IMG/VR virus record: IMGVR_UViG_3300032280_000753
Location: 64,001-128,000 of that record
Reading direction: 5' to 3' (one strand)
DNA: 64,000 nt
Source: a virus
Lineage: Duplodnaviria > Caudoviricetes
Position 1 is the stretch's first letter. Every line of letters begins with the position of its first letter. Shown here piece after piece: positions 15,598 through 15,785 of the stretch. The translations under genes were made by a program, and so were the position numbers. The notes below the pieces were generated by a model. That model was given only the letters and a program-made list of their open reading frames with translations, had not been told where the DNA came from and searched no databases.

Positions 15598-15785
15598 GTG
15601 ATAGTGTAGTCCTGATTTCATCAGATGGGTTAATCCTCCATCGGTGTCTACTTCGCTGCTATCACAACGAGCCTTCCAGGCTTTGGGGCTTTTTTTACGG
15701 AAGCTACTCCGCTTCATTCATAAGGAAACCAACCTTATTAGTCATACAGCTTATATGACACGTCAAACTCCGAGACGTGGAGTGG
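15598..15785 (-). ncRNA. putative structured non-coding RNA (unassigned)
   Basis: Back-to-back pairings: ACTCC/GGAGT crossed with CGTC/GACG, GTCATA/TATGAC, ATAAGG/CCTTAT, GAAGC/GCTTC, and GTGATAG/CTATCAC enclosing further stems; followed by a terminator. Confidence 0.5.

What the first reader, a model, noticed from the sequence alone, without database searches (positions are those of the whole stretch)
15598..15785. Unassigned ~190-nt structured RNA with a compact pseudoknot, ending at a strong terminator
Seen on the minus strand: ACTCC-A-CGTC-TC-GGAGT-TT-GACG (H-type pseudoknot geometry), three consecutive hairpins, then a multi-way junction closed by GTGATAG/CTATCAC and GTAG/CTAC containing GATGG/CCATC and TGA-TGAAA-TCA. 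It is GC-richer than flanking spacers and lies downstream of the tRNAs. I cannot match it to tRNA, tmRNA, RNase P, SRP or a known ribozyme. Established: large ornate ncRNAs (GOLLD, ROOL) sit in phage tRNA clusters. Inference: a new phage ncRNA or a domain of one.
Basis: partly seen in the sequence, partly recalled or inferred. Interest (0 to 1): 0.7.

Follow-up and report, generated by a model that had tools for sequence, protein, structure and literature searches.

The report
Phage tRNA-operon trailer RNA, new family
This is a real, conserved, folded non-coding RNA of about 170 bases that closes a tRNA operon of an uncultured huge phage.

Summary
The stretch is a real RNA element, but its anatomy differs from the description. 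The conserved unit is window 15557-15767 (minus strand): an 8-nt leader, four short hairpins, one long irregular hairpin with a variable tip, then a strong intrinsic terminator.

I found 13 relatives (81-99% identical) in viral and metagenome contigs of one group of huge phages, one copy per contig. The RNA is better conserved than the flanking coding DNA. Indels that are not multiples of three rule out a coding role.

Helices are 99.5% paired, and 9 pairs show double changes, 6 of them outside the terminator. The core's folding energy is not exceptional (z -1.65).

The "compact pseudoknot" (15768-15790) is a decayed 3' end of a tRNA-Asn gene. It occurs in 2 of 14 members. The proposed three-way junction and third hairpin fail the comparative test, and CUGAUGA is not conserved.

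The RNA always follows tRNA-Asn(GUU). It abuts the tRNA directly, or is separated from it by an inserted homing-endonuclease gene, as in this window. The downstream gene varies, so it is not a leader of the CCA-enzyme gene.

There is no Rfam match and no homology to T4 RNA C or D, which hold the same position in the T4 tRNA cluster. The function is unknown. The scan has noted analogous, unrelated tRNA-trailer RNAs in other phages.

The parts
15557..15767 (-). Whole conserved RNA module: structured core plus terminator and U tract
   Evidence: Alignment A5 of 14 members. Model R1 scores it 263.7 bits and finds a single copy in the window.
15760..15767 (-). 5' leader UUUGACGU. In relatives it starts directly after the discriminator base of tRNA-Asn. 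ACGUG is nearly invariant and the fourth base is free.
15741..15759 (-). Hairpin H1 (GUCAUA / UAUGAC)
   Evidence: U-A becomes C-G in L094 and U-G in L077 and L147. 96% of cells paired.
15720..15738 (-). Hairpin H2 (AUAAGG / CCUUAU, 7-nt loop UUGGUUU), nearly invariant
   Evidence: 100% paired. The only loop change is G to A in L094.
15697..15712 (-). Hairpin H3 (GCGGAG / UUCCGU, loop UAGC)
   Evidence: Two compensatory pairs, G-C to A-U and A-U to G-C, in L099 and L094.
15683..15696 (-). A-rich, then C-rich, single-stranded linker (AAAAAAAGCCCCAA)
   Evidence: Columns 75 (A/U) and 80 (G/A) change together in two lineages, which is unexplained.
15670..15682 (-). Hairpin H4 (AGCC(U) / (A)GGCU), invariant
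15600..15663 (-). Long irregular hairpin H5. It comprises GAUAG/CUAUC, a 7-nt internal loop CAGCGAA, GUAG/CUAC, and CCGAU/AUC-A-GG with a bulged A, topped by a variable apical stem-loop (15617-15639).
   Evidence: The inner helix has 2 compensatory pairs. The apical stem differs in length and sequence between subtypes and still pairs. The basal GAUAG/CUAUC is invariant. RNAalifold prefers a competing local hairpin for it.
15566..15592 (-). Intrinsic terminator hairpin
   Evidence: Consensus scan. 3 pairs with double changes, 100% paired.
15557..15565 (-). U tract of the terminator
15768..15790 (-). Decayed 3' end of a second tRNA-Asn gene (T-stem 3' strand plus acceptor 3' strand).
   Evidence: Aligns to the tRNA-Asn 3' ends of L001, L077, L099, L127 and L170.
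15816..16460 (+). Free-standing homing-endonuclease-like gene on the opposite strand, inserted between tRNA-Asn and the RNA
   Evidence: PHROG HNH and homing-endonuclease families, best E 1.6e-12. Absent at this place in L134, L147 and L170, where the tRNA abuts the RNA.
16421..16494 (-). tRNA-Asn(GUU) without encoded CCA, the gene that precedes the RNA in every member
16912..16982 (-). tRNA-Ala(UGC), first gene of the operon
17000..17028 (-). Promoter-like site TTTACA-17-TATATT upstream of tRNA-Ala
   Evidence: 10 of 12 consensus matches. This is a consensus match only.

Best explanation
The element is the last gene of a phage tRNA operon. The order is promoter-like site, tRNA-Ala, a roughly 400-nt unassigned conserved RNA-like spacer, tRNA-Asn, this RNA, terminator. 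It is transcribed by read-through from tRNA-Asn.

In the ancestral layout, kept in 9 of 14 members, its first base follows the discriminator base of a tRNA-Asn that has no encoded CCA. Endonucleolytic tRNA 3'-end maturation (RNase Z type) would therefore release it with a defined 5' end. The intrinsic terminator sets its 3' end.

The product would be a small RNA of about 200 nt, built as a row of hairpins plus one long irregular hairpin. I take it to act in trans, most likely by binding a protein through its invariant loops and internal loop, during the phage's takeover of host translation or tRNA metabolism. It is the same kind of gene as T4 RNA C and RNA D, but it is not related to them.

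Shown here: conservation, non-coding nature, helices with compensatory changes, fixed position after tRNA-Asn, a working-looking terminator, single copy.

Inferred: transcription, processing by RNase Z, stability, action in trans, and any partner.
For: - 13 relatives at 81-99% identity, one per contig.
- RNA identity to the window is 88-93% in L077, L134 and L147, where flanking coding DNA is 65-80%. In L099 it is 81% against 76-80%.
- A 2-nt insertion (L008, L128, L140), a 1-nt indel and a 6-nt deletion (L094) exclude a reading frame on either strand.
- 99.5% of 644 helix cells are paired. 9 pairs have changes on both sides, and 0 of 500 shuffles reach that. Slid controls give 35-42% paired and at most 1 such pair.
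- RNAalifold independently recovers H1, H2, H3, H4, two H5 helices, an apical helix and the terminator.
- 20 G-U cells in the core, and 23 in the terminator, would be A-C on the other strand. The T run also sets the strand.
- tRNA-Asn(GUU) lies upstream in all 14 members, in three different tRNA-Asn sequence versions.
- The only terminator in the operon lies at the RNA's end, and a promoter-like site lies before tRNA-Ala.
- Precedent: the T4 record annotates rnaD 1 nt after tRNA-Arg, then rnaC, with segB inside the cluster. One T4 primary transcript gives eight tRNAs plus species I and II RNAs (PMC2330249).
Against: - There are no expression data.
- Core folding energy is unremarkable.
- The compensatory changes come from few lineages, mainly L099 and L094, so the number of independent events is small.
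- H2, H4, GAUAG/CUAUC and GUAG/CUAC never vary, so they say nothing for or against the structure.
- In 5 of 14 members, this window included, a homing-endonuclease gene separates the RNA from the tRNA. There the proposed 5' processing cannot work as stated, and transcription must cross 400-650 nt of inserted DNA.
- No partner, target or conserved neighbouring protein gene was found.
- The family is confined to one phage group.
Confidence: 0.5

Rival explanations
1. Cis-only trailer. The hairpins and terminator merely end the tRNA operon, shield tRNA-Asn and the upstream RNAs from 3' exonucleases, and give the processing enzymes a defined trailer. The released piece has no function of its own.
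For: - It always sits at the operon's 3' end, with the operon's only terminator.
- No target, partner or known motif was found.
- Core folding energy is ordinary.
Against: - A terminator alone would do this job. Here about 170 nt upstream of it are better conserved than neighbouring genes.
- Loops and the 7-nt internal loop are nearly invariant.
- The module stays intact where an endonuclease gene has cut it off from the tRNA.
Confidence: 0.3
2. Conserved DNA next to a homing-endonuclease hot spot. The high identity reflects recent spread or co-conversion with mobile endonuclease genes and introns that target the tRNA-Asn locus. Alternatively the stretch is a nuclease recognition site, and the RNA folds are incidental.
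For: - Three different endonuclease insertions occur at this locus: the window and L128 (antisense), L008, L140 and L152 (sense, with the stop codon on the RNA's first bases), and L001 (upstream of the tRNA).
- Group I introns sit in tRNA-Asn in L001, L077, L094 and L137.
- The module sits next to three tRNA-Asn versions and several different downstream genes.
- T4 SegB drives preferred inheritance of its tRNA region (PMC2330249).
Against: - Compensatory changes and strand-specific G-U pairs are not expected of a DNA site.
- The module includes a covarying terminator.
- It encodes no protein and is single-copy.
- Members with no endonuclease gene between tRNA-Asn and the RNA carry it too: L134, L147 and L170.
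Confidence: 0.08
3. Cis-regulatory leader, either a riboswitch or attenuator, or a processive-antitermination RNA, that controls the downstream CCA-adding enzyme gene through the terminator.
For: - The terminator ends 40 nt before the ATG of a PolyA_pol-family nucleotidyltransferase gene in the window.
- Seven members have that gene downstream.
Against: - In L040 and L127, in L077, L134 and L147, in L099 and in L094, other genes follow. No CCA-enzyme homologue lies in those of these loci that were searched for it: L040, L077, L094 and L099.
- Relatives with an 82%-identical enzyme (L002, L003) have no such RNA upstream.
- The only candidate alternative pairing, the H5 3' strand with the terminator 5' arm, is not kept in L099 (read).
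- No riboswitch model hits.
Confidence: 0.04
4. Debris: a decayed tRNA or intron fragment, or a chance fold, as the tRNA-derived 'pseudoknot' might suggest.
For: - The 5' flank in the window really is tRNA debris.
- H1-H3 form a three-hairpin row that loosely recalls a cloverleaf.
Against: - ARAGORN and the Rfam tRNA, tmRNA and group I intron models do not match the core, even at E<=10.
- Conservation is stronger than in the flanks, and there are compensatory changes.
- There is no similarity to the neighbouring 400-nt spacer.
Confidence: 0.03

Closest known systems
Phage T4 RNA C and RNA D (species 1 and 2 stable RNAs; rnaC 139 nt, rnaD 119 nt)
   Same: Both are small non-coding RNAs of unknown function at the 3' end of a phage tRNA cluster. 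They start next to the last tRNA, are made from the same primary transcript, and share the cluster with a homing-endonuclease gene.
   Different: There is no sequence or structure homology: model R1 scores 7.4 bits, E 0.06, on the T4 locus. The T4 RNAs end in tRNA-like features, a GGUUCGAAUCC T-arm in rnaC and ..CACCA in rnaD. This RNA has none and ends at an intrinsic terminator.
Bacterial tRNA 3' external-transcribed-spacer RNAs such as 3'ETS-leuZ of E. coli (from my own knowledge; reviews holding the terms are listed)
   Same: Both are released from the 3' trailer of a tRNA operon by tRNA processing and end at the operon terminator.
   Different: 3'ETS-leuZ is short and acts as a sponge for Hfq-bound small RNAs. 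This RNA is about 200 nt with five conserved helices, and no base-pairing target is known for it.
GOLLD and ROOL large ornate RNAs
   Same: They are phage-associated, often lie near tRNA genes, and their function is unknown.
   Different: Those RNAs are 500-800 nt with many junctions and pseudoknots. Their Rfam models give no hit here. This RNA is a row of simple hairpins.
Other tRNA-operon trailer RNAs noted earlier in this scan (e1-5658419, e1-1995282, e1-160725)
   Same: They hold the same position after a phage tRNA gene, two of them after tRNA-Asn, and were compared to the same T4 RNAs.
   Different: They lie on different genomes, and the sequence look-up found no shared words. I did not test them here.

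Membership tests
Any Rfam 15 family | Covariance-model score at or above the gathering threshold | tested here: not met
   The window at gathering score gives only tRNAs. In 15400-16000 at E<=10 the best hit over the element is 16.1 bits against a 70-bit cut-off. Six relatives' loci also give no hit at the RNA.
T4 rnaC / rnaD | Position at the 3' end of a phage tRNA operon, next to the last tRNA | tested here: met
T4 rnaC / rnaD | Sequence or structure homology | tested here: not met
   R1 against the T4 tRNA region with filters off: best 7.4 bits, E 0.06.
T4 rnaC / rnaD | tRNA-like 3' end (T-arm, CCA) | tested here: not met
   Seen in the T4 sequence. No T-arm or CCA in any of the 14 members, which all end in a terminator.
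T4 rnaC / rnaD | Accumulates as a stable processed RNA in infection | not testable with these tools
   The 5' strands lie in tRNA debris that only the window and L128 have.
Hammerhead ribozyme or C/D-box RNA (from CUGAUGA) | Invariant CUGAUGA core | tested here: not met
   It reads CUGUUGA, CCAAGGA or CUUUGAU in relatives. There is no Rfam ribozyme hit.
Transcription-attenuating riboswitch or leader | Same regulated gene downstream, and a conserved alternative pairing with the terminator | tested here: not met
   At least five different downstream genes. The candidate antiterminator pairing is lost in L099.
tRNA / tmRNA | Cloverleaf or tRNA-like domain recognised by ARAGORN or by RF00005 / RF00023 | tested here: not met
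tRNA 3'-trailer (3'ETS-type) RNA | Begins at the tRNA 3' end and ends at the operon terminator | tested here: met
   It abuts tRNA-Asn in L134, L147 (4-5 nt gap), L170 and the intron-bearing members. Terminator.
tRNA 3'-trailer (3'ETS-type) RNA | Base-pairing sponge or regulator activity | not testable with these tools
   The host and its small RNAs are unknown.

The most novel reading that the evidence does not exclude
The RNA is a new class of trans-acting huge-phage RNA tied specifically to tRNA-Asn biology. It could be a decoy or adaptor for an enzyme that acts on anticodon arms, such as a host anticodon nuclease, a modification enzyme or a synthetase. Alternatively it could be a partner of the phage's own tRNA-maturation proteins. 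The nearly invariant 7-nt-loop hairpin H2 and the invariant internal loop of H5 would be the binding sites. Its fixed place after tRNA-Asn, in three tRNA-Asn versions, would then reflect function rather than history.
Probability: 0.15. Interest if true: 0.7.

Novelty: new member of a known kind. Interest (0 to 1): 0.38.

Why it matters
Small stable RNAs at the end of phage tRNA clusters have been known since T4 species 1 and 2, and their function is still unexplained. This is an unrelated family in the same position, in uncultured phages with genomes of roughly 400 kb that carry their own translation toolkit. That suggests such 'last genes' of tRNA operons recur in phages and are under selection. 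The locus also gives a clear picture of how homing-endonuclease genes and group I introns reshuffle a tRNA gene while the RNA beside it stays intact. The value is limited by the narrow distribution, the lack of a cultured phage or host, and the absence of expression data.

Tried and rejected
- BLAST of the element against 50,697 GenBank phage records, distant mode: no match.
- DNA search of whole contigs of five more distant relatives: no match.
- Model R1 on 69 further loci, on a more distant 320-kb phage's tRNA-Asn region and on T4: nothing credible.
- Pattern scan of 185,579 prokaryote genomes: only chance 18-mers, several of them in Lysobacterales MAG contigs that do not extend.
- Short 20-25-nt BLAST hits in L063, L067, L081-L083 and others. 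Model R1, run on L063, L067 and L081-L083, found nothing there.
- Coding hypothesis (55-aa ORF 15550-15717 and plus-strand ORFs): rejected because of frame-breaking indels.
- Similarity or complementarity to the neighbouring ~400-nt spacer: no better than shuffles.
- Long-range pairings I looked for by eye found no support in the variable columns. These were the 5' ACGUG with the 3' tail, UUU with the A-run as a cloverleaf closure, and CCCC or CUCC with the invariant GGAGG.
- Empty-site test: the contigs of the closest RNA-less relatives hold no tRNA-Asn, and they are fragments, so the test was uninformative.
- Check against the published IMG/VR catalogue of candidate structured RNAs (PMC10690425): its supplementary files are not held.

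Full report
**What is at the coordinates**

The stretch is richer in G+C (40-47%) than its flanks (21-33%). ARAGORN and Rfam find seven and six tRNA genes in the window, all on the minus strand, and nothing at the finding. A permissive Rfam scan of 15400-16000 gives only noise. The stretch ends in the only terminator-like site of 15400-17100: 15592-15566, 12 pairs followed by a T run.

**Relatives**

The phage collection gave no BLAST match. Loci fetched through the downstream protein, together with five DNA-pattern scans of IMG/VR, one of the metagenome collection and one of prokaryote genomes, gave 13 relatives at 81-99% identity:
- IMG/VR: L001, L008, L040 (L170 is the same contig with more flank), L077, L094, L099.
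- Metagenomes: L127, L128, L134, L137, L140, L147, L152.

A covariance model built from them (R1) finds one copy per contig. It finds no further members in 69 other loci, in a more distant 320-kb relative or in T4.

CheckV rates the contigs as 8-25% complete at 32-103 kb, which implies genomes of roughly 350-450 kb. The nearest GenBank records for the neighbouring enzyme are uncultured phages of 480-640 kb, at 30-40% identity.

**Boundaries, and the 'pseudoknot'**

Homology among all members starts at UUUNACGUG (window 15767) and ends with the terminator's U tract (15557). In L001, L077, L094, L099, L127, L134, L137, L147 and L170 the bases just 5' of this point are the T-arm and acceptor 3' strand of a tRNA-Asn(GUU) gene.

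The window's 15768-15790 (CCACUCCACGUCUCGGAG) aligns to that tRNA end but is decayed. Only the window and its near-twin L128 have this sequence. The pseudoknot is therefore not part of the RNA.

**It is non-coding**

A 2-nt insertion in L008, L128 and L140, single-base indels, and a 6-nt deletion in L094 fall inside every ORF that crosses the stretch on either strand.

**Structure**

Read against the alignment, the supported fold has these parts, with window coordinates:
- H1, 15759-15741
- H2, 15738-15720
- H3, 15712-15697, pairing GCGGAG with UUCCGU
- an A-rich linker
- H4, 15682-15670
- a long hairpin H5, 15663-15600, made of GAUAG/CUAUC, an internal loop CAGCGAA, GUAG/CUAC, CCGAU/AUC-A-GG, and a variable tip
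- the terminator

On 14 sequences, 99.5% of 644 cells are paired, and nine pairs show changes on both sides: two each in H1, H3 and the inner H5 helix, and three in the terminator. None of 500 shuffles reaches these values. Sliding the partners by 1-3 columns drops pairing to 35-42% and leaves at most one double change.

RNAalifold, run without my structure, returns the same H1-H4, two H5 helices, an apical helix with a further double change, and the terminator. It replaces the invariant GAUAG/CUAUC with a local hairpin. This one point stays open.

The tip of H5 differs between subtypes, for example GGAGGG/CCCUUU in L077 and L147, and AGG-GAAA-CCU in L094, yet it still forms a stem.

- GAAGC/GCUUC is broken in two members.
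- GAUGG/CCAUC is 87.5% paired, with no double change.
- UGA/UCA is 48.7% paired.
- The outer two pairs of GUGAUAG/CUAUCAC are often unpaired.
- CUGAUGA is not conserved.

Forty-three G-U cells would be A-C on the other strand.

Caveats:
- The double changes come from few lineages, chiefly L099 and L094.
- Half of the helices never vary.
- Folding energy of the core alone is ordinary: z -1.65 in the window and -0.51 in L099. The z of -3.05 for the longer stretch owes much to the terminator.

**Selection**

Against L077, L134 and L147 the RNA is 88-93% identical, while flanking coding DNA is 65-80%. Against L099 it is 81% versus 76-80%.

**Context**

A promoter-like site (17028-17000) precedes tRNA-Ala (16982-16912). 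It is followed by about 400 nt of conserved ORF-free sequence, then tRNA-Asn (16494-16421). No terminator occurs until the end of this RNA. L170 shows the plain layout: tRNA-Ala, spacer, intact tRNA-Asn, then the RNA starting at the next base. L134 and L147 are alike.

The tRNA-Asn gene comes in three sequence versions:
- In L001, L077, L094 and L137 it carries a group I intron in the anticodon loop (RF00028, 66.9 and 67.4 bits; alignment).
- In L099 and L127 it carries an insertion of about 50 nt at the same site.

Homing-endonuclease genes sit at three places:
- Antisense between the tRNA and the RNA in the window and L128 (15816-16460; PHROG E 1.6e-12).
- In sense orientation there in L008, L140 and L152, with the stop codon on the RNA's first bases.
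- Upstream of the tRNA in L001, beside a truncated tRNA-Asn 5' piece.

The gene downstream of the RNA is the CCA-enzyme gene in seven members and other genes in the rest. Relatives whose enzyme is 82% identical have no such RNA upstream. The RNA therefore goes with tRNA-Asn, not with the enzyme gene.

**Mechanism**

None of the tRNA-Asn genes encodes CCA, and the RNA starts right after the discriminator base, usually with UUU. By established knowledge, such precursors are cut after the discriminator by RNase Z. That cut would free the RNA with a 5' phosphate, and termination would make its 3' end. These steps are inferred.

I rate a transcribed, structured RNA at about 0.8-0.85. I rate a function of its own in trans at about 0.4-0.5, a purely cis role as protective trailer at about 0.3, and the remaining rivals together at about 0.15.

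In the window itself the inserted antisense endonuclease gene means the RNA must be reached by read-through across 650 nt, and its 5' end must be made in some other way. The sequence is nevertheless intact: 99% identical to L152 and 97.6% to L001.

**Comparison with known RNAs**

T4 offers the closest parallel. The record places rnaD one base after tRNA-Arg, then rnaC, with segB in the cluster. One transcript yields the eight tRNAs and both RNAs (PMC2330249).

There is no homology, though. The T4 RNAs end in tRNA-like features that this RNA lacks.

No support was found for GOLLD or ROOL, a riboswitch, a ribozyme, a tRNA or a tmRNA.

Earlier notes of this scan describe unrelated trailer RNAs after phage tRNA genes, which I did not test. 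The sequence look-up found this RNA only in its own genome.

**Verdict**

This is a real and apparently undescribed small RNA family. It is of a known kind, has a narrow range and has no known function. The features that made it look exotic do not hold.

Noticed in passing
window 16495-16911 (-): About 400 nt of ORF-free sequence between tRNA-Ala and tRNA-Asn. It is conserved in L001, L099 (86%), L127 (81%) and L170. It has no Rfam hit at E<=10 apart from noise, and no similarity or complementarity to the RNA studied here. It looks like a second unassigned RNA of the same operon (another first-reader note, e1-5747977).
   Followed up: partly
L001:894-1092, L077:6799-6995 (-); also L094 and L137 by alignment: Group I intron (RF00028, 67.4 and 66.9 bits) in the anticodon loop of the phage tRNA-Asn(GUU), between U35 and U36. 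ARAGORN misreads the L001 3' exon as tRNA-Thr.
   Followed up: partly
L099:867-987; L127 about 590-700: The same tRNA-Asn carries an insertion of only about 50 nt at the intron site (the Rfam tRNA hit spans 121 nt). It is either a mini-intron or the remnant of a deleted group I intron. Whether the tRNA still works is unknown.
   Followed up: no
window 15816-16460 (+); L008:2416-2760; L001:517-879: Three free-standing HNH or homing-endonuclease genes sit at different points around tRNA-Asn, with leftover tRNA pieces beside them (window 15768-15790, a 3' end; L001 about 455-472, a 5' end). This suggests repeated replacement of the tRNA-Asn allele by endonuclease-linked cassettes.
   Followed up: partly
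L094:3165-3521: A phage-encoded tmRNA (RF00023, 102.5 bits) lies upstream of tRNA-Ala in one relative. No tmRNA was found in the window.
   Followed up: no
L077, L094:7560-7641, L134:12468-12548, L147:3990-4071: ARAGORN calls a tRNA of about 82 nt with a four-base anticodon (uuua) in four relatives. Rfam tRNA scores it 33.6 bits in L094. It could be a frameshift-suppressor-like or otherwise unusual tRNA.
   Followed up: no
window 13477-15525 (-): The CCA-adding / PolyA_pol-family enzyme (residues 51-261 by Pfam) is fused to about 290 further residues with no Pfam match. More distant relatives (L004-L030) match only the first ~390 residues.
   Followed up: partly
alignment A5 columns 75, 80, 150, 154: A-to-U and G-to-A changes in the A-rich linker occur together in two separate lineages. 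They mostly accompany A-to-U changes in the 3' internal loop of H5. They cannot be base pairs with one another. Unexplained; possibly recombination or a tertiary contact.
   Followed up: no
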